Shown piece by piece: positions 6,901-60,300 of a stretch of DNA of 64,000 nt. The position numbers and the translations under genes were made by a program. The DNA is from Lingula anatina. Lineage: Eukaryota > Animalia > Brachiopoda. The DNA is taken from NCBI GenBank assembly GCA_051362555.1, contig CM120645.1:20522001-20586000 (forward strand), given 5' to 3'. The notes beneath the pieces were generated by a model, which worked only from the letters and a program-made list of their open reading frames with translations, was not told the origin of the DNA and did no database searches. Every line of letters starts with the position of its first letter. The stretch's first letter is position 1.

Positions 6901-9900
6901 ACATTAATTAATTATCATGACACAGCGATAAGGCACAGTATAATTTTCGTGTAATCCACTGTCCATTACTGCTATTTCTCAATATCAATCAACATTGTCC
7001 ATGATAGTTCACATAATAATTCCTGTTTTTTAATTAGTCTTAGAACACATATCTTTTCTGCACTTTAGAGATTTTTTCAACCAGTCACCTTAACAGGTGA
7101 TGGAAACAAGTTAAGTCCACGAGTGTCTATGCTAGGCATTGGAAGGACTTCCTTTGCATCTTTTATGGGAATCCATGCTTTGTCTTCTGTGGCAGGGTAC
7201 AAAAAGTTTCTTTTGCCAGAACCTTCAGTACGTAAGAAACTGACTTTCACTTTGCCGTCTTTAGTGTCATGGATGACCTGACCTAAGAATTGTTTTACTC
7301 CTTTCCTGGCAGCAAACTCCGCAATGACAAAATCTCCCTGGTGAGACTGAGCTGTGCCTTGACCAACATTGTCATAGTGCGGATGTGCAGGCAAATCTAA
7401 GTCCACAGTCATATGAATAAGTTTAGCATATTAAGAGGGTTGCTGGTACAAAGAATTGGTTGACACAAGAACATGTCCACGGGTCTGGGGCTGGGGCTGA
7501 AGCTGTTGGAAGTGTTGAATTCCTGGAACAGATGGACAGTTTTCCCAGCGACTGCTGATGGGCGCGGTAGCTGCTACAATATCTGCTGCAGACTGGTGCA
7601 TTATGTTGACATTGGGGCATAATTCTTTGCCAGCCAAATAGAATTGATAAGGTGTGTCTACAACCATTTTTCTCTGGAGCACTGCTCTCCAAACCTGATG
7701 TTTCATTTCCCCTACGATCCCATCCACTGGTCCTTTGCCATGGGCAGTGGTATAAAAAGTACCACTGCGCTCCATACCAAAATCTCCCTCATGATAGTAC
7801 CATGTTTAGACAGTAAAAACCAACTTTTGAATTGACTGGGGGCTCGGGCTCCGTCTGACCAGTAATGGACTTTGCTGAATGAATGCTGGTGTTGGAGGTC
7901 TTCAAGAATGGCCTTATTACAAGTGAAGACGGGCTGTTTGTTATGATGCAGTTCATCAGATACCATAAAATATGGTTGGAGCTGGAGGTCTCCTTCAGAC
8001 TCTCTTCTAAATCATGCACATGCAGTGAACAGAATGACCTGCTCACAGTTCTAGTGCTCTGACATGATCTCTGACGGCACATGTCAACACCTAATCACTG
8101 ACAGTCAACCTAGCTAATAATCAGCAATGGTTAATGAATTACCCAGTAATGATCAGTTGCAAAAGAAAAATAAGAAATGTAACACACCAGAACATTTGAA
8201 AATGATTCAATTGAAGATGTAAAACCTCGTGTTTCACATCTGTCAGAAAATGTCCCGTCAGAGACAGAAAATGTCCCGTCAGAGACAATGATAAAATGTG
8301 GCAATAAATTCACTGTAAATTGTTTTAATTTTGTAATTTTTAGCTATAATCATTACTTATCATTATTGAAAAGAGGATTTTAAGTTTCATTTATACAACC
8401 TACCAGATGTGGAAAATATGAAAACTTTTCGAAGTCAAATGTCTCTGACGGGACACACCACTCCTAGTGCTAAATAATTTTTTACTCAAAATAAGTGATA
8501 GGTGGCAGTTTTCTATGTTAAACTATTACTTCTGATTAGTTTAACATATTTGGGTGATAAAAACTTGAAAAAACAACCTAATATCTGACTCAGGCCAATA
8601 TGACCATGTGTCCCGTCAGAGACAATTTTTTTTTTTCCTTTATGTTTCCCAGTGGCTCACAGAAAAAGTACTGGGAGTATATCAATGAAACTTACATTAT
8701 CTGAAAATTTGATTTGTTTTCTACAAAAATGTAACAATTTTAAATTTCAATGAAACAAAAAAAAATTTGACACCCATGGCACCGTTACCGTGTTTTGACC
8801 CTAAAAGAAATAAATTGTTCTGAAAAAAAATGTAAACTGTTATGTGAACAAAGTAATCTTTTGGCTAAAAGATTTGATTTGACTGAAACTCCATTGTACA
8901 TTATTTGGTTTAAAGGAAACATCTATTTGAATTACTTCATTTTATGTAAAATGGTCATGGAAGCTGACACAGCCACTAAATGATACTTAGACCCTGTTCC
9001 CATGCCTACATCGATCATAGCAGGATAGACCCATCTCCGAGGGGTTTCTTGCTAAATTGCATTCAGCTTAAGTGGCTTAGATGTCTTCTTTTAGGAAGAT
9101 GAATTACCGGTAAAAGGAAATAGATATGGCCCTATGGGGGAGGAGGAGGGGGGGGGGGGTCCTGATTTCTACTCTTTATATTTCCACTTCAGTCAAGTCA
9201 CCTAGAGTGAAAGAGGCATATTTATTTTATTTTATTGTTTTATTTTAGGGATATCAGTTTCTTTTTCAAATAAGCTCTCTGCAGGGAAAAGTCAAACAGT
9301 GATTTGTGAATAGGAGAAAATTGCTTTTTATGTAGGAAAATTCAATTTGGCATGAAAATCCTGTATAGGATAGATTTCTTTAATCGTTTCAAATTACCAA
9401 AACATTCTGTCTTTCAGCTGGGGATCTCCAATATGCACTGACAGATATACTGCTATTCAATAACGCCTACATGCGTCCAGGCGGGAGCCCGACCAACGAA
9501 CTGCTGACAAGCTGGGGACATCGAAATCCTTCCATTATAACCCTATTTAAACTGCTGGCAAACCATAGACGTTGTAGAGAGATGCAACTGCTGAAAGATT
9601 TAGGTAAGACAATGTCAAGACTAACATCAATCTTCATAGAAAAGATTTTTTTGTGTAAAAAGTATTACATAGTAAAAGAACTTGATAAAATGAATATATG
9701 AGTGTTAAGAGAGTCACATATTGAATGAATAAAAACAGAACAGATTTGACATTTTTCCAACTCAAAATTGTCCATAATCAATGAAATTTTCTTTCTACTT
9801 CTACTTGCTATGATCGAAAATAGAAACTGAAACAAAGAAAATGAAATTGACAGACGCTTTATCAGCGCACAGTTTTGATGAAATGCGACTGATAACTAGT

Positions 9901-17900: not shown

Positions 17901-20236
17901 TTTAGTTATAAAGTTAAAGTAAACGATGGCCATAGACAGTCAGGTGCAATGTCTGTTCAGAGGGATCTATAGTCCAGGGATCTTTTAATTTGGTCTAAAT
18001 TTTTAGACCTAAGTTTTAGTCAACTTTAGTTAGGTAGTTCCATTGTCGGATAACTTCATTGAAATTGGGAGATTCAGACCTTGTTTGGAAATGAATAAAA
18101 TATGTATCCCTCCATTCTTCCTCCTATCTCAAAACATTTAATATAAAAGAATAAACCAAATAAAAAAGATAACAGAATAGAAAAGAACAGATCAGCTTAT
18201 TGTCACAGAATAATTTTTAAAACGTGCAAGCGTGTACGAGTTTTTACTTTTGAAAGTTGAAGGGGAGGGATGAAAAAAAAAACTTCAACCACTCCCCCCT
18301 TCATACAGTCAAACTGTGCCCTAGGGACTACCAATGATGAGACACATTTAATGTAAATGTGTACAGTTTGTTAGTATTACCAGTAACTCAGTTATGACTG
18401 ATGCCGTGTCTTAATGCTTGTAAGAAGTACATCAAGTTAATAAATTAATGTTGTTTTCTTTGAAATCTCTAGGTTCTGAAAAGTTTAGAAGATGTAGAGC
18501 TGAATGTTCAAAAAGAGAAATACTTCCAACACAGAAGGTCTTCAAAGGGTAAATAATTTCCAATGTTTTATTCAAGATATTTATTTAAATGAAGAATTGA
18601 GACTTGCAACAAAATATTTCTCAGTCATTGCTTGTACATGTATGATGCAGTCAACAGATTCTTATGTGTTTAAAAGTCAGATTTTTTATGTCAAAGTTTT
18701 TAAATAGAAATGATTTACATAATGGTGTATTGGAAGCCATGGTGAACCCTTACTTTACTTTGAAGCTGAATTGTAAAATTTGAAAATCCTTCTTTTTCAG
18801 AGGATGAAAAACCGGCTCCTTCTCACATGTCATATGAGGACACTTCAAGGTCTTTCCAAATGGACCATCATAGTTACGTGAGCCCAGAGAAAAAGCTTCA
18901 GGAAGTTCCAGACTATGTAAATGAGAGCAGCATTACAAAGGATGCAGATGACCCAAATTTTTTCTACAGTGACCCAAAGAAATTGGCCGAAATAGAAAAG
19001 TTTGATCAGGGCAATATTTCACACTCTGCAGATGATGAACGTTTTTTGGCCTATGATAAAAAGAAAATTGGAGAAGACACTGTAGGTGGCAGCACAGGAG
19101 GTGGTCCACGCAGCATGAGCCCTCTTGAATTACAAAAACAGTATGATGTTGCAAAGGAAAAAGAGACCCAGTCTGGAAATTTTGTTACAGCTGAAAAACG
19201 GCCTGGTCTTTTGAGAACTTATAGTCCATTACAACTCCAAATGAGTTATGATGCTATGAAGCAACATGGAGGTGCTAAGTCACTTGACGGACACCTGCAG
19301 GAGAAAGTTGAAAAGAAGGCCACGGAAAATTCTGTCCCCACTTCACTGCCTGCACAGCCTCTCAAAGATGGACGAAAGTTGGAAGTTGAACATTATGAGA
19401 ATATCCCTGTACACCATGACTATGAAAACATCCCAAATTTTAGTGAAATTCAGTTCATCCAGCAGGGGGCATCACAGTCACCCCAACCAAGACAGTCCAC
19501 AGCCAATTGCACTCCTGCTGAAACAACTAACAGATCAGAAATGGCAGTTGAGGAAGTTATGCCACGTAAGAAAAAACTACCCAAGGCATTTCAGCAGTAT
19601 TATGACGAGGTTGCTGAATTGCAGAAGGAAGTCGAAAATAAAGATGCCAATGTGTTCTTTGCTGGTCTTGAGCAAAGTCAAAATTTTCGGTCACAGGCTG
19701 TGGGGGATAATCCAGAATATTACAACGAGGTTTGCCTCCAGATGGCACTGCAAGAGCACCAAGAAAGCCAAAGTCAAATAGGTGACATTCAACAATTTGA
19801 AACACGAGACACTGCTGTTGTGCAAAAAGAGGACAACCAGCAGAGAGACACTGATTTTGCAGAGCAGAAAAGTGAGATTTTGGCCACAGATTCTACCATG
19901 GCTGAAGCCCAGAGCACGGAGCATATTCAAGAGCATGTAATCAAAAGTGGGGACAAAACTGCCATTTCACAGCATCATCATTACACCAGCTGCATCACAG
20001 AGTATGTTGCAGATGAGGGTTATGTGCAAAATCCTGCTTTGGGCTCATCGCATTTTCAAAATCCAGAATTGGGCCTGGAGTGCACTAAGCCAAGGTTGGG
20101 CTCGCCAGCAGATATTGTGGAAAATTTGAGACAGAGAAAAGAAGCACTCATGCAGTCGGTGCAGAAAGACTTGCCATCAGTTACTGAAGACATGGCGCAC
20201 ATGTCTGTCAAAACCAACACAACCAACACACCTTAA
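3310..20236 (+). CDS. IRAK1: Pelle/IRAK1-like kinase (death domain, non-RD Ser/Thr kinase, long C-terminal tail). Exons approx. 3310-3424, 9418-9603, 13727-13831, 14270-14734, 15332-15513, 15831-15898, 16295-16409, 16561-16679, 16959-17163, 17413-17490, 17724-17891, 18473-18548, 18801-20236
   Basis: Death domain ([31 protein letters not shown]). Kinase motifs [27 protein letters not shown], Tyr gatekeeper [27 protein letters not shown] (non-RD, as in IRAK1/Pelle rather than IRAK4 HRD), DFG, YAPPE, ERPEM. Intron phases are consistent throughout. Confidence 0.9.
5007..5231. mobile_element. PIF/Harbinger-like (Tourist-type) MITE, copy 1
   Basis: Imperfect TIRs GGGTGCATTCCCA..TGGGAATGGGGTC flanked by TAA on both sides; same family as 49273-49486 and 59009-59222. 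Confidence 0.75.
6177..6623. repeat. Identical 91-bp direct repeat (6177-6267 and 6533-6623)
   Basis: AACCGGACTTTGTGG..CCGCCGTGATAA occurs twice; the ORF track shows the duplicated peptide. Confidence 0.85.
6730..8630 (-). mobile_element. Degenerate DDE DNA transposon, probably Sola2-like; transposase pseudogene at ~7077-8082
   Basis: Frameshifted pieces [39 protein letters not shown] and [10 protein letters not shown], plus a C-terminal GDFVIAEF domain. A subterminal motif GTCTCTGACGGGAC recurs in both orientations (6735, 6748, 8252, 8273, 8441, 8609). Termini not resolved. Confidence 0.7.
10717..10928. mobile_element. TTAA-flanked MITE (Kolobok-like) in IRAK intron 2
   Basis: TTAA|GGGAAATTCC ... 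GGGATTCCCC|TTAA, with imperfect inverted ends and internal poly-T and poly-A arms. Confidence 0.6.
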
Positions 20237-20550
20237 AAAAAATATTTTTATGGGACTTAATTTCTCTACATTTTGATGTGAGAGCAGCATTTAGAGGCAG
20301 ATCTTGGATTTTGGAAAACTGTGTGTGTGTGTGTGGTGAGGGGGGAGTAGAAAAGGGGATGCCTACAAAGCTTAGCTGAAGGGAAGGATGCCCCTGCAGT
20401 GTCCCCCCTCCCCCAGTCCACCATTGAGTACAAAGGTGCTTCTTTACTAATGAAAGGAACTGAGATACTTAGTACTATATTGGTGCTTTTGCTTTGTACA
20501 GCTATTTAATGAAGAATCTTATTAACAGGTTATTACCTTAACCGTTTGTT

Positions 20551-20594
<44 letters not shown>

Positions 20595-22268
20595 GTTGAA
20601 TGTATTGTTTATTTTTCTTAGAAAGATGTCTGTAATATTTTGATATCACTGTAATGTTGAAAATTAATAAATTGATAATAATGTGATATCATTTTAATGT
20701 AAGATGATTTTCTTGAGCAATAAGTGAAGATCATTGACATGATGTAGTTCAAGCAATAAAACTTCATAACCAGATTTATTCATTCTTTAGTAATTGAAAC
20801 ATATAGCCATGATCATAGTAAAAGGCATTACCTTTTAAGTTAATAAGTTAAATATATTGGAACTGTTTTAATCATAACTGTTACTCTGAATTGATGTTTT
20901 ATATATGATTCCTGATAATTGAATGATATAATTGTTAAGGAGTAGATGTGGGGGAATTTGATTGAATACTTAGGATTTATGAAAATTTAGACAAAAATTG
21001 TCAGTTGTCATAATTTAGTTGTTGACAACTAACATTCTGATGTGTCACAAGTGCTTGTTAGTCTGAAAATAATCCTATCCAACAAATCTTAGATGACTTA
21101 AAAAAAAACCTTGGATCCTCTTTCAGAACTTTAGTCTGAAAGTTGGTATTAGCTATTATGCCAAAAATTTATACTTGTTCAGTTCAGGATAATTTGGTAA
21201 TAGTCAAATGTTATTATAATTACATTGTACTATTGGTCTTATTAAACATGAAACATTTTCCTTGTGATAAGACAGGTTCAGCATGTCATTCAAGTGAATT
21301 ACTACTGATTATTAGTATAGGGCAAAGAAGACCTACATTTTGATCAAAAAGTTTAAACTAACTTACTTTTCAAAGTACATTTACAAATTAAACTGATCTT
21401 TATCCATTTTGCCAAAGGACCATCTACAACTAAGCTGTGCATCACAAATGTATTGGCTGGTAATTTTGTCTCCACAAAATTGCAATTTTCCTCTAGTCAG
21501 TAGATGTTCTACGCAGTTGTAGTTAACTATTATAGTATTATAGAATGATTAAGTTACTAGAAGTAGGCCTAAATAACTCTTAATGTCAAATAGATTTGGA
21601 GCTTCTTTTTGTGAGTGCCAACATAAATGTTAAACTTTGATTTCAAGGAAATTTTGTTAGAAGGAACTTGTCATTGGGTAAATTAACAGTTCAGACTTTA
21701 CAGTTAAATAACTCGCTTGTTAAAACATGCATGCATTGTTTGGATTTGTCAGAGATTGTGCTTTACTATAAAGGAGCTCCAGAAATCAAAAAATCAAAAC
21801 CTGTCACTCTCTCTTTAGTTCCTCAAGCAATGTTAGAAAGAATCAGGTTGTCAATCCTTTTTTTATTCGACAATAAAACTGACAAGGAGAGTCGGGATTT
21901 GATAACATTTTGCTCTTTATTTTAATTGTGCTGAATAGTTCTTTCCTATTTTTTATTTCCCCCCACTGAAAGAGGAGTTGGGGGGTATATTAATATTTTT
22001 GCTAATGGTCATCAACTTACTAATTGCACAAATCAAACGGGGTTTCTATAGATTTCGGAGAAGCTCGGTCAGGAATAATTATAGCAGGTTAGGTGCACAT
22101 TATGCAGATTATTCCCGTCTCGATCACAGATGAAGTAACAGTGCCAACAGCCAGGTTTTTTTTCCTACTATCTCGGTTTATATCCATCATAACTGGTTTT
22201 CAAAATGAACATCAGTTTTTTCAGATGATTCGAAAATAACCTTTACTCAAAAGAAAGTTGAAGTTCTA

Positions 22269-22309
<41 letters not shown>

Positions 22310-25300
22310 CTCGAAATAAAAATGGATAAAATGATATTTAAAGTATGGCCTTGTTTGCTTCAGGTCTTCAACCTGCTTTGGGATGTAACATTGTACAAAA
22401 CTAAGTAAACATTACTTTTCTAACGAGTAAAATGTTATCATCTGCTAAAGGGATATCTGTTCATATCAGATTCATATTTCACAATAAATGCATTGTAAAC
22501 AACTCACAGAAATATTTTCCACCAAAACAGAGGTTAACGCAGTTAATCTGGAATCTATGCTTGCCATGACTTCCATAGATGGCTTTATATCTGTAATATA
22601 TCAAAGACCAAATACCAAAGACCAAATCTTTCAGATAAAAAGACCATGGACTAACTTTGAATGTCGGACTTGATTCGTTTACAGTTGTTATGCATGGGAA
22701 AATGGTCGTGTACCCCAAGAAAATCCCTTTTGTATTTTTAGATCAAATTATAATTTTATATCTTGATGAACGAACGCTTTGTGATTGTAAAGGCCATTTC
22801 TTTCTATTTGGGTTCATTGTGCCAAAACTAACTGAAGTGATTTATAGCACCAAAACACCGGTCAAGCCTGAATAGCGCCTCGATGGACCTTTTCTTTTTT
22901 GTCTCTTTATATAACTTGGCATTACTTTTCATCTGCCAAGTTTTACGTGCTGTAACACAAAGTTTATTATTAACTTGTTGATGCTTAATTAAAATCGTTC
23001 CGTCACAGATTGATTTTTTTTTAATGTTTTTACCGAGAAAGAACCCTCCTCTGAGAAATACTGGATCCGCCGCAATATATAATATACCCCTTAACTAACA
23101 TCAAAAAGTGTTGGGTTCTTGCACCTACAGTGAAATTTTCTTAAGATTGTTACTTTTGGGGCACTAATCCGACTCACTGAAGTCTTGACATCGGCAAGAG
23201 TTATTCCCGGAGAGAAAGTTACGTAACACCGCAACATCGTTTTTAAAACCAAAAATTAATTATTACTGAACTTCGTCCGGTTTTATGGAAGAAATCGGCA
23301 TAACAGTAATTACAAAACCGTAAATCAAATATAGAGTATAAATTTTATTCAACTGTAATGTACAATTTTGAACAGTTACATTCAATTTCAAAAGGACTTC
23401 AGTAATCATTAATGAATCATATAAACGCAATGGATTAAAAAATGGTAGTGTTACTGAAAGTTTATATTTTCCTTTCCCGTCTTTATCATCTAACAACGAA
23501 ACGCAGATAGTCCAGTAATGCTGGTTTTATGGTCGAAAGTTGGTACCCGATGCTCTCGAGCCGTGGGGAAAAACCCGTCTAAACCCTTCTTGGGGAATGC
23601 CGGGAAAGTGCCCACGCCCGGATATTTTCTTTAAATCAATTTTTCTAATGGCGCCTTACAGTTCAAGAATATCGTCCCGTTTTAGACAGCATAGTGTGAC
23701 TGAATAAACTCTCTCGTGACTACAAACTATTCTCTATGTATACTATACAAGACAAACTATAATTTATCAAAGTAAATCATACAGAAATCGAAAGAGACAC
23801 AAAGCCAATTGAGACATTTACTAGAGACTTAACACAAAGCGAGACTAACTAAATCTAATGGGATGAAGCCATAAATAAAGCCACTTAATCCTGAAAGCAT
23901 CTTTTTTAACTTGCTTATAGTTCAAATGATAAAATGCATAAACAGACCACCAACAAATTCAGGTAACATGACTATAACTCGGGTATCTCAATGATTTAAA
24001 CTAAACTTAGACATAACTCGGTACAAAATACAAATTTCTAAAATTTCATTTTGCCCTGAAATCGACACTACCTATATGGATACAAGTAAGGAATAAAGCA
24101 AGCTTGCTTCGAAATATTTCACACCTCACATCACTGTTTGACCGTCCATGCAAGTTTCAATTTGAATTTGGTCGATCCGGAGAAAAGGTGCATATCTGAT
24201 GAAGTGGATATATTTGTCAAGTATAACACTTGGGAAAATCTGAATGTTAGTAATGTGATCTCTACCTTGAGAGATGATAGCATCTCTCAAGTAGAGGAGG
24301 CTGTGCAAAAAATATAATGAAATATTTTATCATGTAAAATATTTCATTGCAGATTTTGCACAGGCTGTCAATGTAAAATCTCTTCATGTAAAAGCGTTTA
24401 CATCAAGTCAGATTTTACAAAGATGTGAGGGTTTGTTAGTAAGGTTAGTGTGCTGGTTAAGACCTTCCCAAATGACATACTGACAAACAACTCCACATCA
24501 TCAAAAGCACAAATTTCGGAAAAGACTACTGCACTACGATTAAAACAAAACACAGACGACCATAAGTGGTGGGAATACTAATGCTTTTGTGAGCAAAAAA
24601 CTATCTGCATTTAGAATGTATACAGCAACTATATATTCAATTTAAATCATTTATATGATAATCAAGTATCTGAAGAGGTAGACTTAACAAATTTTCATAC
24701 ATAACCACGCCTCATCTTATTCAATTGGAATGCATGGAATTAAGAATGATCATTCAGACCTTCAGCCATTGAAATAAAACTTCACTTACATAAGTATAAA
24801 ATAAAACTTAGCGCAATTATATTCGACAAAAGTTTGTGACCAATGAAACCCAAATATTTTTATTATCCAAAAGCCTCGAGTCCATTATTAGATTGTATTC
24901 CTATTATAGTCAGCATATTGCTCTTCATTACCATTGCTCATTCTCTATATTTGTTTGCAGAACAAGTTGTATCCTTCAAAACCGAAACTGCTAGGACGTC
25001 CAATCATTAATGAAAAGTGGCTACAGGGCTCCTTGCTAGCGCTATGAAGTGTTTCACATCTTGGATATTTGGTCTATGGTTGAAGTTGTTTGCTTTCGGG
25101 CATCATTTCTGGAAATCCCTTTTTGCAGCCTACAAATGAAATGTAATATGTTCACTTTAAAGTAATAATGATTTATTTCACCTTGTAAAGTTACATGTTA
25201 ACATTGTTGGTTGTCCATGCTATTTTTCTGCATTTTCTTAAGGAAAGTGAAATAGTAATATATACTTGAATTATTTCATAACTAATTTAGACACTTGGCT

Positions 25301-26859
25301 ATCAGTACATACAAGTTAAGGGATGCGATGTTTAGGAATGTGATGGGCGCTTTTGCCAATTCTGTATATACAGACACTGCTCTAAGATTATTATTCTGCG
25401 AGTTGAGAAGGATACAGTTTTTGTTCACAGTCTATAATAAGAAAAAATACACTAATAATATAGATATATATATATATAAAAGTTAAGAACTGCTTTTCTT
25501 AAAGTTGTCGATCCCCATTAACTTACAAACTTATCTTGCAAGAAGATCCCTCGCTCCTGAAGAAGAAGTGTTTCATCTGGTGGTTTGGATGTTGCAATCG
25601 GCATTTTTGGAAACCTCCACTTTTGGTAGCCTGCAAATTTTATTTATAATTTTAAAATGTAATACAAGCCAACAATTGCAATACGAAATGTGTATAAAAA
25701 GTTTAATCGGTTTGATAGAAAATAGATATCAAGAGCATTTTTTGTCACAAACTCTGAAAAAACTTATCATTCACGCGAAATATTTTGACATGCCACTGGC
25801 GACCTTCGTCAAAATTTAGAGTTTTAACGACGGAAAAGGAACATTGCATTTGCTCTAACGGACCAGGAAAAAACCGATTGGGAGAGTGCTAATATTCTAC
25901 AAAACGAAAGTGACTGGAGAACAAGAGGCATAAAGGAAGGAACGTGTTTTGCTTTCCCAAATAACATGAGTTACATGTACCTTTTAAGGCTTTCCATCTC
26001 AGTGAAACGCCACATGCTTCTGATGTTCTCCCATGCAGCCGCCTAATAAACAGTCCATGGCAGGACTAAATCATGCACCAAGGAATGATCGAAGTAAACA
26101 AATGTGCCGCTCTTCTTGCACTTCTTTTAAAAACTGGGAACTATCAGGAGTAGCCATCAGTTCTGTAAATAGAAACGAAAATGGAATTAGTTTTCAAAAT
26201 CAAAAGCAGTCTGCGACCGAGTACATTTAAGAGTTTTAGATTTGATTCAATTTTTTAAATTAACTGTTAAATCACAATTCTAAAAATGACAAGGTCTTGT
26301 TAATACAAATATTAATGCAATCCAGTCCAGTCCTATTCAAATTTTTATTTGGACCAGTAAATCCAAATTCAGACTTCTAGATTTAAAGGGATAATAACTT
26401 CGTATTATATCTTTATTTCACAATAAATGCATTGTGAACAACTCATAGAAATATAATATATTGTTTTACCACAAAAATAGCAGCTATAGCTATTATTCTG
26501 ATATCTAAGCTTGTCTTCAGATCATGTGACTTCCATTGATGGCTGTACTCTGTTATAATCTCTTAAGAGATTTTAACAAAAAAAACCAAACTTTTTAGAA
26601 AAAAAAAAAAACGGACAACTTTGAATGTAAAAATGGATTCATTAACCATTGGTAAGTATGGAAAAATTGTTGTTTACTCCAAGAAAATTCACTTTTTGGC
26701 CAAAACGAAGAGTTATTATCCCTTTAAGGAAAGTAAGGCGGTCCAAACGGTGAAAAGTTTATGGCACGGACTTCAACTAAAAGAAAATCATTTTTGTATA
26801 TTGCTCTCCCCAATAACACGGGTTACCTTCCAGGGTTTTCCATCTCATTGAAACACCAT

Positions 26860-27190
26860 ATGACAGGACTCGCTGGACGCGTCCCCAATGCAGCCACCTC
26901 GTAGACGGACCATGGCAGGACTCGCTGGACGCTTCCCCCGTGCAGCCACCTCGTAGACAGACCATGGCAGGACTCGCTGGACGCTTCCTCAGTGCAGCCA
27001 TCTCGTAGACAGACTATGGCAGGACTCGCTGGACGCTTCCCCAGTGCAGCCACCTCGTAGAAGACCATGGCAGGACTCGCTGGACGCTTCCCCCGTGCAG
27101 CCACCTCGTAGACGGACCATGGCAGGACTCGCTGGACGCTTTCCCCGTGCTGTCACCTCGTAGACAGACCATGGCAGGACTTGCTGGCAC
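26860..27190. repeat. 52-bp GC-rich tandem repeat, block 1 (~6 units)
   Basis: Unit GACAGACCATGGCAGGACTCGCTGGACGCTTCCCCAGTGCAGCCACCTCGTA. Confidence 0.95.
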
Positions 27191-27384
27191 CAAGGATTGG
27201 TCGAAGTAGCTGAAGTGTAGATGTGGGCCCTTTTCTTGCAGTTGTCAGTGGGAGCTCTGTCGAGGATCGCCATAATCGAGTTCTGTTAACAGAAATAAAA
27301 AAAGATTAATGACTTTTTCTACTTATGTCAGTACTCTGCAGTCAGGCTTACCTTTAAGGAGTTTCCTTCTCGTTGAGGCACCAT

Positions 27385-27770
27385 ATGACAAGACTCGCTG
27401 GACGCTTCCCCAGTGCAGCCACCTCGTAGACAGACCATGGCAGGACTCGCTGGACGCTTCCCCAGTGCTGCCACCTCGTAGACAGACCATGGCAGGACTC
27501 GCTGGACGCTTCCCCAGTGCTGCCACCTCGTAGACAGACCATGGCAGTACTCGCTGGACGCTTCCCCCGTGCAGCTACCTCGTAGACAGACCATGGCAGG
27601 ACTCGCTGGACGCCTCCCCCGTGCTGCCACCTCGTAGACAGACCATGGCAGGACTCGCTAGACGCTTACCCAGTGCAGCCCCCTCGTAGACAGACCTTGG
27701 CAGGACTCGCTGGACGCTTCCCCAGTGCAGCCACGTCGTAGAGAGACCATGACAGGACTCGCTGGCACCA
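27385..27770. repeat. 52-bp GC-rich tandem repeat, block 2 (~7 units)
   Basis: Same unit as block 1; the flanks are also homologous, so the two blocks are duplicated exons. Confidence 0.95.
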
Positions 27771-27829
27771 AGCAATGGTCAAAGTAGCTGAGTGGGGCGT
27801 CTCCTTGCAGTTGTGTTCTGTTAACAGAA

Positions 27830-29899
27830 ATAAAAACGAGATTAGATTTTTCTATCACACACTTTAAAAAAAAAAAAAAAAAAAAGAAATTACATACCTT
27901 AAGGAGTGTAGTCGAAGTCCCACAGGTGGCGCCCAACATCTTCTATGTCCTGTAAACAGAAATAAAAACGAGGTTAGATTTCTTTCATTTCTCAAATTCT
28001 CCTTACAAAAAGAAAAAAGATTACATACCTTAAGGAGTGTAGTCGAAGTCCCACAGGTGGCGCCTATCATCTTCTATGTCCTGTAAACAGAAATAAAAAA
28101 GAGGTTAGATATCTTTCATTTCTCAAACTCTCCTTCCAAAAAGAAAAAAGATTACATACCTTAAGGAGTGTAGTCGAAGTCCCACAGGTGGCGCCCATCA
28201 TCTTCTATGTCCTGTAAACAGAAATAAAAACGAGGTTAGATTTCTTTCATTTCTCAAATTCTCCTTACAAAAAGAAAAAAGATTACATACCTTAAGGAGT
28301 GTAGTCGAAGTCCCACAGGTGGCGCCCATCATCTTCTATGTCCTGTAAACAGAAATAAAAACGAGGTTAGATTTCTTTCATTTCTCAAACTCTCCTTCCA
28401 AAAAGAAAAAAGATTACATACCTTAAGGAGTGTAGTCGAAGTCCCACAGGTGGCGCCCATCATCTTCTATGTCCTGTAAACAGAAATAAAAACGAGGTTA
28501 GATTTCTTTCATTTCTCAAACTCTCCTTCCAAAAAGAAAAAAGATTACATACCTTAAGGAGTGTAGTCGAAGTCCCACAGGTGGCGCCCATCATCTTCTA
28601 TGTCCTGTAAACAGAAATAAAAACGAGGTTAGATTTCTTCATTTCTCAAACTCTCCTTCCAAAAAGAAAAGAAATTACATACCTTATTGAGTGAAGTCGA
28701 AGTCCCACAGGTGGCGCCCATCATCTTCTATGTCCTGTAGACAGAAATAAAAACGAGGTTAGATTTCTTTCATTTCTCAAACTCTCCTTCCAAAAAGAAA
28801 AAAGATTACATACCTTATTGAGTGAAGTCGAAGTCCCACAGGTGGCGCCCATCATCTTCTTTGTCCTGTAAATAGAAATAAAAACGAGGTTAGATTTCTT
28901 TCATTTCTCAAACTCTCCTTCCAAAGAGAAAAAAGATTACATACCTTATTGAGTGAAGTCGAAGTCCCACAGGTGGCGCCCATCATCTTCTTTGTCCTGT
29001 AAATAGAAATAAAAACGAGGTTAGATTTCTTTCATTTCTCAAACTCTCCTTCCAAAAAGAAAAAAGATAACATACCTTAAGGAGTGAAGTCGAAGTCCCA
29101 CAGGTGGCGCTCATCATCTTCTATGTCCTGTAAACAGAAATAAAAACGAGGTTAGATATCTTTCATTTCTCAAATTCTCCTTCCAAAAAGAAAAAAGATT
29201 ACATACCTTAAGGAGTGTAGTCGAAGTCCCACAGGTGGCGCCCATCATCTTCTATGTCCTGTAAACAGAAATAAAAACGAGGTTAGATTTCTTCATTTCT
29301 CAAACTCCCCTTCCAAAAAGAAAAAGATTACATACCTTATTGAGTGTAGTCGAAGTCCCACAGGTGGCGCCCATCATCTTCTATGTCCTGTAAACAGAAA
29401 TAAAAACGAGGTTAGATTTCTTTCATTTCTCAAATTCTCCTTCCAAAAAGAAAAAAGATTACATACCTTAAGGAGTGTAGTCGAAGTCCCACAGGTGGCG
29501 CCCATCATCTTCTATGTCCTGTAAACAGAAATAAAAACGAGGTTAGATTGCTTTCATTTCTCAAATTCTCCTTCCAAAAAGAAAAAAGATTACATACCTT
29601 AAGGAGTGTAGTCGAAGTCCCACAGGTGGCGCCCATCATCTTCTATGTCCTGTAAATAGAAATAAAAACGAGGTTAGATTTCTTTCATTTCTCAAACTCT
29701 CCTTCCAAAAAGAAAAAAGATTACATACCTTAAGGAGTGTAGTCGAAGTCCCACAGGTGGCGCCCATCATCTTCTATGTCCTGTAAACAGAAATAAAAAC
29801 GAGATTAGATTTCTTTATTTCTCATACTTCCCTTCCAAAAAGAAAAAAGATTACATACCTTAAGGAGTGTAGTCGAAGTCCCACAGGTGGCGCCCATCA
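27830..29899 (-). repeat. 131-bp tandem array, 16 copies; each unit is a 52-nt exon-like segment plus a 79-nt GT-AG intron-like segment
   Basis: GAAGTCCCACAGGTGGCGC recurs at 27914, 28045, 28176, 28307, 28438, 28569, 28699, 28830, 28961, 29092, 29223, 29352, 29483, 29614, 29745 and 29875. Confidence 0.95.
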
Positions 29900-30254
29900 G
29901 CTTGCTGTCTGCTTCCTGGACCTGTAATAAAAAGAAACCTGGAAAACATGGGAATATGCAATGACACTACGACTCCAGCCCATGACAGCAAAAAAGGTGA
30001 AGTATCCTGCGAAGATTCCCGAGCGACGATTCCTCGTGGGGAGAAGCGAAGTTTTTAGCTGGCCAGCTAAGAGAAACGCCGAATCCAACGTCTAGACGTC
30101 TGCGTGTGCAAGGAACAATATGTCGAAGAGCGATGCGTTGACGTAGGATGAGGAAAAGATTCGGAGAAATGCGAGTCGACTCCCGTGTCCTTTGTGCTTG
30201 ATACAGGACGCAGCACACGACGTCCTTCCTGTTGCTGTAGATCTGTCCGCAGTT

Positions 30255-30303
30255 GAGTGAACGCACTTTCAAAATTCCGCGCTTTTATACCTTTAGTCAC
30301 GTG
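30255..30303 (-). promoter_or_regulatory. TATA-Inr core promoter with adjacent E-box
   Basis: Minus strand reads CACGTG..GTATAAAAGC (T at 30289) and TCACTC with its A at 30258, 31 nt downstream, followed by a CpG-rich first exon. Confidence 0.65.
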
Positions 30304-33150
30304 GTGGCGTTCCTGTTGTCACCACTGGTCAACTTGTTCATAGGGGATGGCCTTTGATAGTGATAGGCCAATTTGATTATAATATCTTAAAGACATATAA
30401 TTTTTTTTCTATTTTCTATTTGGATTTTTTTTGTTTATCGTTTCATTTAATGATAAAGATATTAAGTAGGCCTACTAAGCAGTGACCTCGAAATGTAACA
30501 GACAAAGTTGATGACAATTTCTGAGCAACATATCCTCTCCCCAAAATTGTGATAGGCACGATGTCCGTTACACTGGAAGCTGTGAACTTCTCGCAGCTAG
30601 GGCACTATATAGTGCGCGTGTATTCGAGCACTGATCCAAAATGTGGATGATGTAATAGGGCGTAGAATGACTGCATTTTCGAGGCACCCTGAGGGAGTAT
30701 GGCTGTTCTGATTGTAGTGAATTGTAGTGTGTCAATTGAAAGTACGCTGGACTTGACATGTACATTCACCTCAGTTCTCTGAAACACATTTTGTAATCAT
30801 ATGAGTTGTTATTCTGAGAAATGAAAATAAGTTATTATGATTTTACGAAAAGAAAGAATAGCAGCAGTGGGTCATTTAAAAAATCTTGATTAACTTCTTC
30901 AAGGCAGTAGAAACGAATGATTTTATTTTTGTATATAAAACTATTGATTTAGGCAATAATTAACAACAGGTGCCTTCCTTTATGGCTTCAGGTGATCAGT
31001 ACTCTCATGTCACTGACATGAGCAGAGAAAAAACAGAAAAAGATAATAAATAAGTATAATAAGTTAAAATTTTGAAAAAATGAAATATTTCCCATTTGTA
31101 CGTTCACTTTATCCCTTTCAAACCATAGCTGAATTTTATCCTTTTTAATATGCGTTTTAACATTAGCCTCAGTGCTCACCGATTCTCAATATGTAGGTCC
31201 ATTTAGGAATTTAAAACAAGAGAAAGAATTGTTTATCCAAGTGGAATTAACTTATATCAGTCTAGCTACTTAAATCGCTGCATGAAAAAAATAATTACTA
31301 GATTTATCTGTTCTGACACACACACACACACACAAAAAAAAAACATAAAATTTAAACCATCGTTACTGTAGTTCGCAGCTCCAGCTTACATTCTCCAATC
31401 GATTTAGGTTATTTCTACTAAAGAACAAAATCAGGAAGTGAGTATGATATCTAACGTCTCAGAAAATGTCTGTGTCTATGTTCATTTTAAATGGCGCAAT
31501 AAATAGATTGCGGATACGTTCGCGGTGTCACCGGGCTTTAAAAAAATTTTTTTTTTAATCGTGACGTCTTTTGCCGCAAGCCATAATTTTAGTTTGATTT
31601 TTTAAAATAATATTATAAAGAATCTTTAATTCAGTTACGTCCATGATTAGCTAGACGATCTGGTGACAGGACACAATTGTTTGAGACGAAACACAACAAA
31701 ACTGTATTCTCGTAGAAAGTAATTTGCAAAACCTTCGTTTCCAGGCATTGTAAAACATATACTTTAGGTTAAGGACAATATTTGCCAGTAAAATCATGTG
31801 CGTCTCGTAATACCCCTTTATCGCGTCATCATTAATAGCGTGCAAATATTATCCAAGCGGGTTTTTATTTTTATTTTACTGAATACAAAAACTTCCCATA
31901 CTACAAAGGCATGTATGGGGAAATGTTTGGATCATCACATAAAAAGCTAGATTTATCCCTTTCTGTCACAACAGATTTTGGAAAAAGAGGAATTCGCAGA
32001 GGAATCCCTCCCCAATTTTGATTTCAGATAGTTATTCAGTAACAGACAAAACTGTGTTAAAGTATATTGTTACAGGCAAGGCACAGCCCATCCTATGCCT
32101 AGATACAAAATCTTTGATTCAAACAATATGGCCTCGATCAAGTGTGGCTTACTTAACAGTTTTGCGATGTTACTTGATGACTTTCGAAAATTGATATATT
32201 AAATTATTATTTAATATTACATTTAAATTCTGTCCACGCATTAAAATGTTTAAAAACTTTTTTTAGGGGTGGGGGGGGGGGCGGTTTTTAAAAAACCGAA
32301 TACCCCTCTAGGAAATCCAGAATCCGCCCCTGCTTGGCTTAAACCAGCTAGAAGTACATACTTGGGAGATGGCATCTGATCTTTTTAATATATCAAAGTC
32401 ACTCCAAAAGTCCTAAAACATTTTTATATTGGGTCTCACATGAATATTTCCAGCTCTGGTCATTTCCATTTTTTACATAAATGAGATACATGAGCAATCC
32501 CAATAGCGACTGGATGGCGATTCCGACTCTTTTAAAGAGATTTGATAAATAATGCTCTTTAATCCAGAAAAGAAATACATATAAATACATTAGCGGTGTG
32601 TTATAACTCTTAAGGAGTGTATTTCACATTCTTTTAGAGGACTAATACCATTACAGAAACCAATAACTGATGCTCTGATCAGTTTGACGATGCAAAGAAC
32701 TTGAACTAGCAGAACTTGGGATATAAAGCTGATGAACAGAGAGATTAACATTTCCTATACAAGTTATTTGAATGTTCTGTCTTTTTAAATATTTATTAGA
32801 AATGAGAAATAATGTCACAATTCTGGATCTTTGTGTTAAACAAGCCATGTACACTTTTTGAGCTTATCAAATATCGTTTTGTCATACCACGACAAAGCCA
32901 GTCTTATTGTATTTCCACATTCTTCTCTCCTTCTGTTGCTTTTGCCTTGTATCCTAACATACATTATTAATGAGGCAGTGACCGATAAAAAGTAGTCCCA
33001 AATCACTATTCAACTGTGTCAAATCTTCCACACATCTCAAAGCTACACCAAATCCCAAAACTTTGACAACTCCCTCATTATGCTGTTTTAATCTCTTATA
33101 TAAAGTCACTGCAGCATTAACTGGAGGTTAAAAGTACATTCCAAGTTTGT

Positions 33151-46687
<13,537 letters not shown>

Positions 46688-55193: not shown

Positions 55194-57288
55194 TGAAAGA
55201 TGTGCTGTCGTACCTTCTTCTGGGCAGGACAGAGACCACCCCTCGCTGCTCACAGACTGAATAGACTGTGGTGACTGCCTCTGTGTATAACCTGTGGAGG
55301 GTTCAGTAAAGTCATCCTCAGACTCCTGAGGCTTGCTAGTAGGGAGTAAAACAAAACTGAACCTATTTGTGAATGTGCTTTTTAACAAAGTGCTGTTTAA
55401 TTCATCTTCTCTATCTGTATATTTGCCAGCTTTGCTGTCTATTAAATTCATCTTGTGTGTCAGGCCTGGTGCTGATGATGTTATGGTGCTGAAGCAAGAG
55501 TTGGTGCAGACACACACCATGATGGACCAGCTGGCACAGGAGAAAGAGGCAGAGAAGGAAAAGATGGAGAAGGACTATGAAGAGTTAAAGACTAGATATC
55601 AAGAGTAAGCTTGTTTTGTTTTTTTACTGGCAGCTTGAAGTTTCCACTTTCAATTTATAAATTTAATGAAGATACAGTGTATCAAGAACAAGCATGATTC
55701 ATGATAGTAGCAACTACTAGATTTCAATGTTAATGTTTCATCTATTTAAAATAAGTTCTGCTTAGTAAAATTTTGACAAAAATGTGTGCCTAATTGAGCA
55801 TTTTTCTGCCTTATGCAGTAGATAGGATATATGTTTATTTAAAACTATGGTGAAAAAAGTATACAATAATTTTCATAGATACTAATTTAGTTTAGTTAAT
55901 TTAAGTCATGGTTGATGGTTTCAGATGATCACTATCAGAAAAACTCCATATTTATAATATTGCTTGACATCTGGTAAGTAGTATTTTATTGATGAAAAAT
56001 GAAACAGAAATTAACAAATACAAAAAAATAAAAGTGATGGCTAATGAATTGACATTGAATTATTTTTTTTTCGTTAGGAGTGAGCAATTGACCAGGGAGC
56101 TGAGGGAAGAACTGGCTAGGGCTCCTAAACTGGAGGAGTTACAAAGGTAAAGAAATAATTATTATTATTAATTTTATTAATTTATTATTATTGACAAAGA
56201 CACAATTAAGAATATATATATATATATAGTATCATAGTAAATAAAACTATGTGAATATCTTTTCTTCACCAAATGGCAATGCGTCTCTTGCGTGTTGTGT
56301 CCATGTCCAGTGTTTTCTATCCCTAGACTCCAGGCATCTGCTGCAGACTCCAGCTCTGGCTCTCAGAAACTCCTGGAGTCCTTGCAGAAAAAGCAAGAAG
56401 AGGCAGCAATGTTACAGGGACAGTTGGAACAGGTAAATACATCTGTAATGTCACATTGGTAATGGATAGAATATACTTTATTTTCAGAACCAATTTTTGT
56501 GGGAATTAGTTGATTGTAACTTAGTTTAACCTAGTTTCATTTAAACATAAAGCATTTTATTAATATTGCAATGCTCATAACATTTTATGTACATTTTTTG
56601 TGCAACTCTCATAATTAAATATAATTCTAATCATATTATTATTATTATTAATTAAGTAGTTGAATTAACTTAACTTGTTCTTTTCATATTTGCAGCTTCA
56701 ACAGGAAAAACTGCAACTTGACCAGACTCTGCAGGAAAAATGTTCAGAAATTGGAAAACTGAACAAAGAATTAGAAACCAGGGGAAACAGTCTTCACCAG
56801 GACATAGCAACTCTAAAGGAGCAGCTGAAGGAAAGGGACCAGGCCATCCAACAAAAGGACTCAAATATCAAAACTTTAAAGGAAGACATTGGTGCTAAGG
56901 AGACATTATGCAATGAATTGCAGGAAGAAATTTTAGAGAAGGAAAAGTCACGAGAAGAAGTCAGAGAGCAGATGAGAGAAAAGCAACTGGTTTACCAACA
57001 GCTTGAGCAAAAGTTTACAGAGATTGAACAAAAAACACACGACATGCAGCAGACTTTGAATGAAAAGGATAGTTACTTGCAAGAGATGCAGCAGATTATC
57101 TCTGAAAAGGAAGATAGCTGTCAGCAGTTTCAGCAGCTTTTGCAGTCCAGTCAAGAAAATTGTGAGCAGCTTCAGAAACAGTTGGGAGAGTTGGAACAGA
57201 GGAATGCACAATTGCTAACAAGTGTTGAGGAAAAGGAGCAGAGCCTCAAGGAAATTCAGGAAGATATGATGAAGGTTTGTGTGAACCA

Positions 57289-57321
<33 letters not shown>

Positions 57322-60300
57322 TGATGGATGTAACGTAGCTTTCAGTAATATAAAATGTACTTTAATATGATTATATTCATAATGCATCTTTTACATAGTC
57401 ACAAATGCTAGCAATAAATTAGTCAATATATAAATGAATATATAAAAATGTAAGCAATAAACAAAAAGAGAAAACTCTATGAAAATAGAATATAACAATA
57501 GAAAAAGAGGGAAACTTACCATGGCGAGTTACTAAACCTCTATTAGAACAAGATGTAATATTTTACTTTATGAGATGCAAAGTATTTAAATGTATTTTTG
57601 CATTTTTTCTAAGACCTAAAACATATATTTTGTGTCATTTCAGACCAAGGCAGCTATGGCAGAGAAGGAAACTCATCTAGCATCTTTAACTCAACAACTC
57701 GGGGACACCAAGCAATCCTCACAAGGGCAGCTACACGAGAGAGAACAGCAGTACACTGCTCTGAAACTGGAGCTGGACAAGGTAGGGCATACTAGGGAAA
57801 CACAAATTATCAATTAGACCCCCCAAAGCCGTCCAGATACTTTTACCAAAAATACATCCAAGAACTTGAAAAAATCCCTAGAAAAGCAATAAACAAATGG
57901 CACACAGATATTGGGGAAATTTTAGACGAAGAGAAATGGCATTTGATATTTAGATCGGTTTTTACTGAGATAGATGACACAAAATTACAAACATTACAAT
58001 TTAGAATTAATCATAGAATTTTCAGCACAAATTCGTACTTAATGAAAATAAAGAAAAAAGAATCTCAGCTGTGCGAGTTTTGTAATATTGCCAAAGAGAC
58101 AATATATCATGTATTTTGGGAATGTCCATACGTACAAAATATCTGGACCTGCCTTATTAATGCTTTAAGGGAAAGTATGAAGATGAATATAGAGAGGCAT
58201 CCCAAAGTGTTCTTATTTGGTCTTGTACAACAATTCAAGATAGAAGGCCTGTATTTACTTACATTGATAACTAAGAAATACATAAGCATATGCAGGTCCA
58301 GATCCGACCCCCCCACTTGGGTAGGGTTAATACAATATATGTCAGATGCTATGGAAATATTACCAGGTTCTCATTATACATGTATCCTCAAGCGAAACGA
58401 ACTAACATACAACAGATTTGGCTAAATATTGATAAGATATTAGCGGAATAACAAAACAAAACTGTTTATAATATGTATTTTTATTTCTTGCTCAAAATAA
58501 GATCAGTATTTCAGTGACTGAGCATCTGTATTATAAGTATTTGTGTGCACAACAGTGTGCGTGCGCCTTCGGATGTGTGAGGCTGTATGAGAAAAAATGT
58601 GTGTACAAATGTGCATATACACTATATTACATTAAGACACACAATCTATTATATCTCTAGTTCTTATAGTGATGCACAGTATCACCTTGCTTCGTTGACG
58701 TATTGTTCAGTTTATAATGTACTTTGTAATGTACTGAAGAATTTTGTATATTGTATTATACGTTCTACAATATTAAAATAATATTTCAGTGACTGTGCAC
58801 CCATAAAAGTGTATATATTGTATTAAGTTAAAACTGTATTGATGTAGTGTATTGTTTTGTATTTGTACTGAAATGTGTTTTCTGATTCTGTGATGTATTG
58901 CATGTTCTCGTATGTTTGTCTTCTTTGTAATGTGCTGTATTGTGTTTGTATATGTTTAATAAAAAAAAAAAAAACTTCAAAAAAAAAAAAAAAAAAACTT
59001 ATCAATTAGACCCCATTCCCACAGATTTTAGATCGATCTATCCCCACGGGGAGTCTCACTAGATTACTGTCGGCTTAGCCGGCTCAAATGTCTATCCCAC
59101 CTACTAAAAGCTGTAAGGGGGTAATTAACTGGCGTGCACTCGTCTGAATGCAAATTTAGAGTGAACCCCCAGGGAGTTAGGTCGGTCCGGATGGATCGAT
59201 CTAAATCTCTGGGAATGCATTCTTAAACCATTATATAATAGCAAAATTTTAGTTTTGCTGTAATTTTTAGTACCATTCCATTAACGGAGAACGATATGCA
59301 TGCCTTCATTTTATTTGCATTTTTGTATTACTGGTTATTTTATAGTAATTTATTTATTTTTAAATTAATATTATATTTCAGACTGTAAACCAAGTTAAGG
59401 TCCATAAAGCCAGTATTGAGGATCTGACAAAGCAGCTAAATGATGTGCACATAAGACACCAGGAAGAGGTATACACTTGTCGAAGGATTAAGAGTCACTG
59501 GAAGATAATTTTGAAATTAAATTGAAAAATATGTTGTAATGAGTTCAGTTAAACCCCGTTGCATTATTTGTATTATTTTATTCATTTCTGCCTTTCTCCC
59601 TATTATTACATAACCATGCAGTTTAAGTTGCCCAGTGTAATTTTCCTGGTTTCCAATTGATCATTTTAGTCCTCCAGAGCCGAGGAGTTCAAAGTTCTGC
59701 TGAGAGAGAAGTCCGGGGAATTGGAGAATGAAATAAGAAGTAGAGAAGCAAGGTAGTTATCAGTGAAAGAGAAAACAAAACTAGTAGACTATTTGATAGC
59801 TAAGTGTTATACTTTGCATTAGATTGTAAAATATGCTTATAGCTTATGAAAGAAATAAATACTAGCTACTAGTATAGTGAACATTATCTTGAAATATGCT
59901 TTGACTATACCTTGATATTTTAATTAAAATTTGAGATTTTGGCTCTCTCAAAAGAAAGAAAAAATATTCTTCTTCTCCAGGATTCATTTGGAATTTCCAT
60001 AATCTTTTATAAGTACTAGTTTTGAGAAAGTGCTTTATATTTTGTGATGTATGTTTTGTATAATAATTATAATATTATTATATGCTGTAGAAAAAGAAGG
60101 ATTGGAACCATAAAGGTTATTACTTTACCTTACAGTTATGTCTTATCATGGTTGTTATTATATTGCCTCATTCTACATGTTCTTTGTTTCATTGGTGAAC
60201 TTGCCTTTTTTCTATTCTTTTTTCTATTCAACTCAGGGATTCCAAAATCAAAGAGCTGGAAGGCATCATGTCCTCACTCAGGGAAACCATAGACCGCATG

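What the first reader, a model, noticed from the sequence alone, without database searches (positions are those of the whole stretch)
24850..30303. A 'satellite' that is built like a spliced gene: TATA-Inr promoter driving a 16x exon-intron tandem array
Seen in sequence: on the minus strand each 131-bp unit reads ..TTTTTATTTCTGTTTACAG | GACATAGAAGATGATGGGCGCCACCTGTGGGACTTCGACTACACTCCTTAAG | GTATGT.., i.e. a strong acceptor, a 52-nt GC-rich exon and a strong donor around a 79-nt AT-rich intron. The GT and AG are intact in every copy, and the indels I noticed fall in the intron part. A TATAAAAG with an Inr 31 nt downstream sits ~360 bp upstream of the array. Five further exons follow, themselves in duplicated sets (27352-27817 ~ 26827-27282 ~ 25981-26162; 25630 ~ 25129). 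There is no long ORF. Inference: a ~21-exon repeat-built lncRNA or smORF gene produced by exon-intron amplification, architecturally reminiscent of repeat-modular chromatin lncRNAs (Xist, Rsx, Firre). No homology to those is claimed.
Basis: partly seen in the sequence, partly recalled or inferred. Interest (0 to 1): 0.88.

Follow-up and report, generated by a model that had tools for sequence, protein, structure and literature searches.

The report
Spliced exon-intron satellite in brachiopod RNA
A 2-kb tandem repeat in the lamp shell Lingula is a transcribed and partly spliced run of 15 copied mini-exons with their introns, inside a likely non-coding gene, and it likely arose by the same exon-edge copying already known as "mirage" repeats, so it shows working introns multiplying without yet showing a function.

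Summary
The anatomy is real: 15 identical-length 52-nt exons plus a first exon, 77-79-nt GT..AG introns with branch sites, TATA at 30289. RNA reads show a minus-strand transcript that starts in the bin holding the predicted start, no DLD read-through, and exon-exon junction reads in 3 of 4 runs (7, 8, 8, 0). But splicing is partial: intron depth is 105-133, 18-22 and 28-33 in those runs, while a DLD control intron has none. The organism is Lingula anatina. Three RefSeq models on other contigs share the large-exon module, so this is a small family without a held reading frame. Intact GT/AG and intron-only indels are what chance gives (P 0.46; 0.08-0.22). Best reading: a regulated non-coding gene whose exon+intron module was tandemly copied, a complete, used form of the splice-junction "mirage" repeats known from amphioxus; this scan noted one-sided mirages elsewhere in this genome, and DLD next door has one. 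A scaffold function is untested.

The parts
30282..30289 (-). TATA box TATAAAAG
   Evidence: sequence
30255..30260 (-). Inr-like TCACTC; predicted start 30258
   Evidence: X1 depth 6.1 in bin 30161-30307 and 0.24 in 30308-30454; the start is bracketed, not pinned
29859..30258 (-). exon 1 (400 nt): 275-nt AUG-free leader, first AUG at 29983 (28-codon ORF), last 45 nt shared with the array exon; unused-or-rare acceptor at 29922
   Evidence: read depth about 8-20 in X1, no joint listed inside it
27898..29858 (-). 131-bp array: 15 x (77-79-nt intron + 52-nt exon), mean pairwise identity 96%
   Evidence: junction reads 7/0/8/8 and retained-intron reads in X1/X4/X7/X9
27818..27897 (-). last array-type intron (80 nt)
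   Evidence: 3 reads of X9 join a 52-nt exon end to the start of exon 27817, 25 of 30 loose letters matching
27352..27817 (-). large exon A (466 nt) with 7 units of an unrelated 52-nt minisatellite
27283..27351 (-). 69-nt intron; not covered by either lay; the matching junction is joined in models P0003/P0004/P0012 and read through once in P0012
   Evidence: inference from protein models
26827..27282 (-). large exon B (456 nt) with 6 minisatellite units
   Evidence: 52-nt 'goes back' joints on the minus-strand RNA: X1 98, X2 145, X5 0, X9 30 (three rows summed)
26383..26727 (.). high-copy MITE in the intron: TTAA + AGGGATAATAACT inverted ends + TTAA
   Evidence: depth 460-2900 on both strands with discordant flanks
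25981..26162 (-). diverged one-unit copy of the module; candidate exon, weakly covered
   Evidence: bin depth 1.8 (X1), 2.5 (X2); no joint among the 15 shown
   Evidence: bin depths 1.5-5.2 in X1
24158..24388 (-). further transcribed block (bin limits), holds a 33-bp hairpin 24298-24369; likely a downstream exon
   Evidence: depth X1 17.8, X2 17.5, X5 1.0; fold z -7.2
23465..23695 (-). further transcribed block (bin limits); likely near the 3' end
   Evidence: depth X1 19.1, X2 21, X5 0; next bin 0.13 in X1

Best explanation
This is a transcribed, partly spliced gene of the brachiopod Lingula whose 131-bp array likely arose by unequal crossing-over that copied an exon tail, a whole short intron and the next exon head, and whose RNA is likely non-coding. 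Shown: minus-strand RNA beginning near the TATA box, sample-dependent expression, exon-exon junctions and frequent intron retention, relatives of the large exons at three other annotated loci. Inferred: the gene was first built from one exon+intron module (exon 1, the 52-nt exon, A, B and 26162 are related); because one module was only 131 bp, a mirage-type duplication captured both splice sites, so each new copy is a usable intron. The spliced RNA would carry a stop after 28 codons followed by many junctions and is predicted to be cleared by nonsense-mediated decay, while intron-retaining RNA with up to 16 U1 sites would stay in the nucleus. Copy number is likely tolerated rather than selected.
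For: Transcription and strand match the DLD control in the stranded run X1, with about zero depth between 30.3 and 32.5 kb. Junction reads 7, 8, 8 in X1, X7, X9; intron depth 105-133, 18-22, 28-33; unspliced tandem joints 19, 2, 7; DLD intron skipped by 32, 40, 22, 34 reads with zero intronic depth. X4 and X5 express DLD/IRAK but hardly this unit. 52-nt exon aligns with the head of exon 26162 above 1000 of 1000 shuffles and of exon 27282 above 984 of 1000. No exon-over-intron conservation among copies, no synonymous-only change. Frames are not held between modules; no Pfam match above cut-off in 5 of 5 translations. A 10-copy donor-only repeat sits in DLD 5 kb away, the pattern described as mirages (PMC3087553, passages).
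Against: Regulated expression at about a quarter to a half of DLD's depth, a conserved branch-site position in 4 of 5 diverged introns, an AUG-free 275-nt leader (130 of 5000 shuffles) and persistence as a family hint at more than drift. 52-nt exon vs head of exon 27817 is not above chance (198 of 1000). Neighbouring units are only weakly more alike than random order (1533 of 20000). Spliced share is uncertain: about 13-16% (X1) and 40-55% (X7, X9) from junction counts, up to about 50-60% and 70-77% from the depth of the unique 5' part. Reads could come from paralogues. Decay and nuclear retention were not tested.
Confidence: 0.6

Rival explanations
1. A functional repeat-modular nuclear lncRNA: the 52-nt exons and the 52-nt minisatellite units are protein-binding modules, and splicing or retention sets how many are displayed and where the RNA stays (as for 116HG, or Xist/Rsx/Firre, recalled).
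For: Own TATA promoter, on in 4 of 6 runs laid and near off in 2; two repeat domains; family of at least three more loci; U1 sites hold lncRNAs on chromatin (10.1101/310433, abstract); 116HG is the spliced, nucleus-retained product of a tandem exon-intron array (10.1101/305557, passages).
Against: No conservation signal among copies; units do not fold better than shuffles (z -0.4 to +1.8); exon and minisatellite do not pair better than shuffles (431 and 410 of 1000); splice-edge repeats arise readily in this genome.
Confidence: 0.2
2. A polycistronic short-ORF mRNA (tarsal-less/polished-rice type, recalled): splicing creates a chain of 30-codon ORFs across the junctions, read by re-initiation.
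For: Each junction creates a 29-30-codon ORF; ATG and stop are kept in all 15 exons; AUG-free leader and good first-AUG context.
Against: All 6 variant events in the exon change the peptide in every frame they fall in; ORFs overlap in different frames; introns often retained; related modules lack this ORF; a 94-aa query holding half the peptide found no relative (weak for short ORFs).
Confidence: 0.07
3. Interior of a dispersed mobile element (Helentron/HINE- or LTR-type carrier of tandem repeats) with incidental transcription.
For: Relatives lie on other contigs; oyster HINEs carry short arrays (PMC7492417, passages); two palindromes lie at 24260-24369.
Against: Stranded, promoter-bounded, spliced RNA; no flanking long repeats within 20.2-31.5 kb; the real MITE in the intron shows a quite different read pattern (both strands, hundreds to thousands deep, discordant flanks).
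Confidence: 0.07
4. Host or precursor of small RNAs (snoRNA, mirtron, piRNA or the 24.3-kb hairpin as a miRNA).
For: Tandem exon-intron non-coding genes are often snoRNA hosts; hairpin 24298-24369 folds at z -7.2 inside a co-expressed block and weakly matches mir-55 (29.7 bits, cut-off 53).
Against: No Rfam family at its gathering score in 24-31.5 kb; the intron has no C/D boxes and is no single hairpin (z -0.41); the hairpin is AU-rich with a 5-nt loop.
Confidence: 0.06

Closest known systems
Amphioxus 'mirage' minisatellites (Adh3, globins BflGb6/BflGb9; PMC3087553, passages read)
   Same: Head-to-tail copies spanning exon-intron boundaries, 81-100% alike, units of 10-160 bp, carrying splice signals; proposed there as a route to new introns.
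   Different: Mirages copy one boundary in protein genes and were reported not to disturb normal splicing; here the unit holds a whole exon and a whole intron, the extra sites are used, and the gene is likely non-coding.
SNORD116 host gene 116HG (10.1101/305557, passages read)
   Same: Non-coding RNA made of spliced exons from a tandem exon-intron array; regulated splicing.
   Different: 116HG introns carry snoRNAs and the units are far longer (recalled); no cargo was found in these 79-nt introns; nuclear retention is untested here.
Xist, Rsx, Firre (recalled; no paper read)
   Same: Long RNA with several tandem-repeat domains and no main ORF.
   Different: No homology, no evidence for chromatin binding, sex linkage or silencing; here one repeat domain exists only after splicing.
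Oyster Cg_HINE elements with central repeats (PMC7492417, passages read)
   Same: Short dispersed tandem arrays in a lophotrochozoan genome.
   Different: No splice-module units or promoter-bounded spliced RNA described in the passages read; HINE termini were not identified here.

Membership tests
mirage minisatellite | tandem units spanning an exon-intron boundary of an expressed gene | tested here: met
mirage minisatellite | only one boundary copied; extra sites largely unused | tested here: not met
   both boundaries in each unit; junction reads in 3 of 4 runs
mirage minisatellite | array length unstable between haplotypes | not testable with these tools
   no genome held; reads show unit variants absent from the window (extra T in 49 of 123 X1 reads)
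spliced Pol II lncRNA | own promoter, over 200 nt, in polyA/oligo-dT libraries, spliced | tested here: met
spliced Pol II lncRNA | no conserved translated ORF | tested here: inconclusive
   no held frame, no Pfam, no synonymous bias; but RefSeq calls three relatives coding (108-215 aa) and no ribosome data exist here
Xist/Rsx/Firre-type chromatin lncRNA | nuclear focus, chromatin binding, repeat-bound proteins, regulatory effect | not testable with these tools
   none
snoRNA/miRNA host gene (116HG type) | intron-encoded small RNA in each unit | tested here: not met
   Rfam none at gathering score; intron fold z -0.41; no small-RNA data
polycistronic smORF mRNA (tal/pri type) | repeated short ORFs under coding constraint | tested here: inconclusive
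   ORFs present; 0 of 6 variant events silent, too few for a test
HINE/Helentron | 11-12-bp subTIRs, 5' microsatellite, 3' palindrome next to the array | not tested
   repeat search used a 25-nt minimum
high-copy transposon interior | both-strand, deep, discordant-flank read pile-up | tested here: not met
   vs the MITE; DNA copy number not measured

The most novel reading that the evidence does not exclude
A brachiopod family of regulated nuclear RNAs whose repeat domain is assembled by splicing: 16 tandem mini-introns act as a dial, so that retention or removal sets the number and spacing of protein-binding modules and the RNA's residence on chromatin; the first case of mirage-type copying building a working multi-exon non-coding gene.
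Probability: 0.2. Interest if true: 0.75.

Novelty: new variant of a known kind. Interest (0 to 1): 0.48.

Why it matters
It is a read-supported case of a 'satellite' that is a row of working introns, the intron-gain outcome that the mirage model predicts. Sixteen near-identical introns in one pre-mRNA, with run-to-run differences in splicing, give a natural test of exon definition and retention at minimal exon and intron sizes. If the RNA has a nuclear role it would extend repeat-modular lncRNAs to brachiopods. It also warns that repeat masking hides such genes.

Tried and rejected
No whole genome held, so copy number and paralogue DNA were not examined. Run search: no RNA holder listed; nine raw-read RNA runs under the same species label were offered; six of nine were laid (X1, X4, X7, X9; X1, X2, X5, X9), each only 6-30% read. 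Second lay was swamped by the MITE: 15 joints shown, 42 hidden; 652 loose ends hidden. Exon-minisatellite zipper suggested by the shared 52-nt period: rejected; the two units are not alike on either strand (999 and 597 of 1000). Mirtron/snoRNA: rejected. Spliced-leader gene: rejected by inference (acceptor before each exon, modest depth, no spread of partners behind the donor). DLD read-through and IRAK antisense overlap: not seen (IRAK signal ends near 22 kb, this unit near 23.5 kb in X1/X2). Apparent higher conservation of the unit than of the DLD 3' UTR between animals: not claimed, 112 difference rows were hidden. Four of seven hits plus P0005 (P0002, P0005-P0008) are unrelated repeat translations or unrelated proteins and were dropped. 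Literature: 'Lingula anatina'+'lncRNA' (11 papers, 10 listed, none on this), the three LOC ids (0), tandem exon-intron lncRNA terms, mirage terms (2): no description of this locus found; supplements were not searched and most subscription papers are not held.
Full report
Observation. The array is as described. TRF gives period 131, 15.5 copies at 27876-29903. On the minus strand there are 16 AAG|GTATGT donors, 15 exons of exactly 52 nt (GC 0.51) and 15 introns of 77-79 nt (GC 0.28), all GT..AG. Each intron also has a branch-like CTAAC/CTAAT 28 nt before the acceptor, and the same spacing holds in the diverged 80-, 69- and 664-nt introns downstream but not in the 350-nt one. None of 5000 shuffled units shows that full signature. 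TATAAAAG at 30289 with TCACTC 29 nt on is the only such pair in the window. Exon 1 has a 275-nt AUG-free leader (130 of 5000 shuffles). The downstream duplicates are real; exons A and B hold 7 and 6 units of a second, unrelated 52-nt minisatellite.

Organism and neighbours. The kinase gene to the left matches a Lingula anatina protein at 97% (IRAK4-like names in its cluster); the gene to the right is dihydrolipoyl dehydrogenase. No whole genome was held.

Transcription. The run search listed no RNA holder but offered nine raw-read RNA runs of the same species label. Laying four on 29720-34100: in the stranded run X1 the unit has the same mate direction as DLD, so it is a minus-strand RNA; depth is 16 at 30014-30160, 6 at 30161-30307 and 0.24 beyond, with near zero up to the DLD 3' end, so it starts at about the predicted place and is not DLD read-through. 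X7 and X9 (unstranded) also express it; X4 hardly does (1.4) although DLD is at 40-83. The joint 29779->29728, which is the exact exon-exon join within its 3-letter ambiguity, stands in 7, 0, 8 and 8 reads (X1, X4, X7, X9); 3 reads of X9 join a 52-nt exon to the start of exon 27817. The finding's refutation test is therefore not met. However, intron positions have depth 105-133, 2, 18-22 and 28-33, unspliced tandem joints number 19, 0, 2 and 7, and the DLD control intron is skipped by 32, 40, 22 and 34 reads with no intronic depth. Rough two-state estimates give a spliced share of 13-16% (X1) and 40-55% (X7, X9) from junction counts, and at most about 50-60% and 70-77% if the unique 5' depth is scaled to 15 introns. 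Both assume the window's copy number, and spliced 150-nt reads may be under-laid. The joined form could not be checked in DNA runs.

Downstream. Laying X1, X2, X5, X9 on 20000-26925 shows the 52-nt minisatellite exons transcribed on the minus strand (52-nt 'goes back' joints 98, 145, 0, 30). Two further minus-strand blocks, 24158-24388 and 23465-23695, have depth 17-21 in X1 and X2 and 0-1 in X5, like the rest of the unit, so the RNA likely runs past 24850 with a different 3' exon plan. In all, 4 of 6 runs laid express the unit and 2 do not, while expressing a neighbour.

Family. A translation of exon A found two Lingula RefSeq models (LOC106164805, 147 aa; LOC106173768, 108 aa) and a third followed (LOC106153014, 215 aa), on contigs of 36, 687 and 346 kb, not the 217- and 410-kb contigs of the IRAK models; two may be haplotypes (86-88% alike). 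They join the same module ends as the predicted junctions here, and one reads through a short intron. Frames shift between modules and no Pfam family reaches its cut-off. Whether these loci have the 131-bp array is unknown (one search found nothing). Six X1 reads run from an array-type acceptor into an exon-B-type core, an order absent from the window, so alleles or paralogues contribute reads.

How it likely arose and works. The 52-nt exon is related to the heads of exons 26162 (0 of 1000 shuffles as good) and 27282 (16 of 1000), less clearly 27817 (198 of 1000), so the gene looks built from one module. Tandem copying across splice junctions is known from amphioxus as mirages, which copy one boundary, vary in length and were proposed as a source of new introns (PMC3087553, passages; lead from earlier notes of this scan). 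DLD, 5 kb away, has such a repeat: 10 donors, no acceptor-like tract. I infer that here the same process caught a whole 131-bp module, so each copy is a usable intron. The modelled spliced RNA has a stop after 28 codons followed by many junctions, which by established rules predicts nonsense-mediated decay; retained introns keep many U1 sites, which in mammalian cells hold RNAs on chromatin (10.1101/310433, abstract only). These two steps are inferred and would explain the excess of unspliced reads. I found no sign that the array is selected: no exon bias in conservation, 0 of 6 exon variant events silent, no unusual folding, no exon-minisatellite pairing, no Rfam match.

Comparison and verdict. 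It works like a mirage but fails that definition in being two-sided and used; it is built like the 116HG host array (10.1101/305557, passages) but carries no detected intronic RNA; likeness to Xist, Rsx and Firre is recalled and architectural only. PMC13121700 (two passages) had no mention of non-coding RNA; searches found no account of this locus; other papers in those lists were seen as listings only. The labels Kolobok/T2-MITE and tal/pri are recalled. Verdict: real, expressed, partly spliced, a new variant of a known kind; function open, neutral tolerance more likely (0.6) than a scaffold role (0.2).

Noticed in passing
window 34965-35546: 59-bp x 10 repeat in DLD copying the 3' end of a coding exon and its donor into the intron: a classic one-sided mirage.
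   Followed up: partly
window 26383-26727; relatives at 22446-22731 and 62649-62818: High-copy MITE with TTAA flanks and AGGGATAATAACT inverted ends (Kolobok/T2-type by recall), abundant in RNA on both strands.
   Followed up: partly
window 24260-24369: Two adjacent palindromes; the larger folds at z -7.2 and weakly matches mir-55 below cut-off; lies in a block co-expressed with the array gene.
   Followed up: partly
window 55212-55349 (-): Displaced, inverted copy of part of an IRAK-like exon (residues 159-203, 83% identity), with the following (ATT)n repeat, inside the coiled-coil gene region.
   Followed up: no
window 28474-28552 and 27283-27351: In both intron types a purine run can pair with the pyrimidine tract, leaving the branch motif in the loop (z -0.41 and -2.44); a possible cause of retention, untested.
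   Followed up: partly
window 7077-8094 (-): Broken ORFs that read like a decayed transposase-type gene; not searched.
   Followed up: no
window 57796-58425 (+): 209-codon ORF that reads like the zinc-binding end of a LINE reverse transcriptase (by eye); not searched.
   Followed up: no
   Followed up: no
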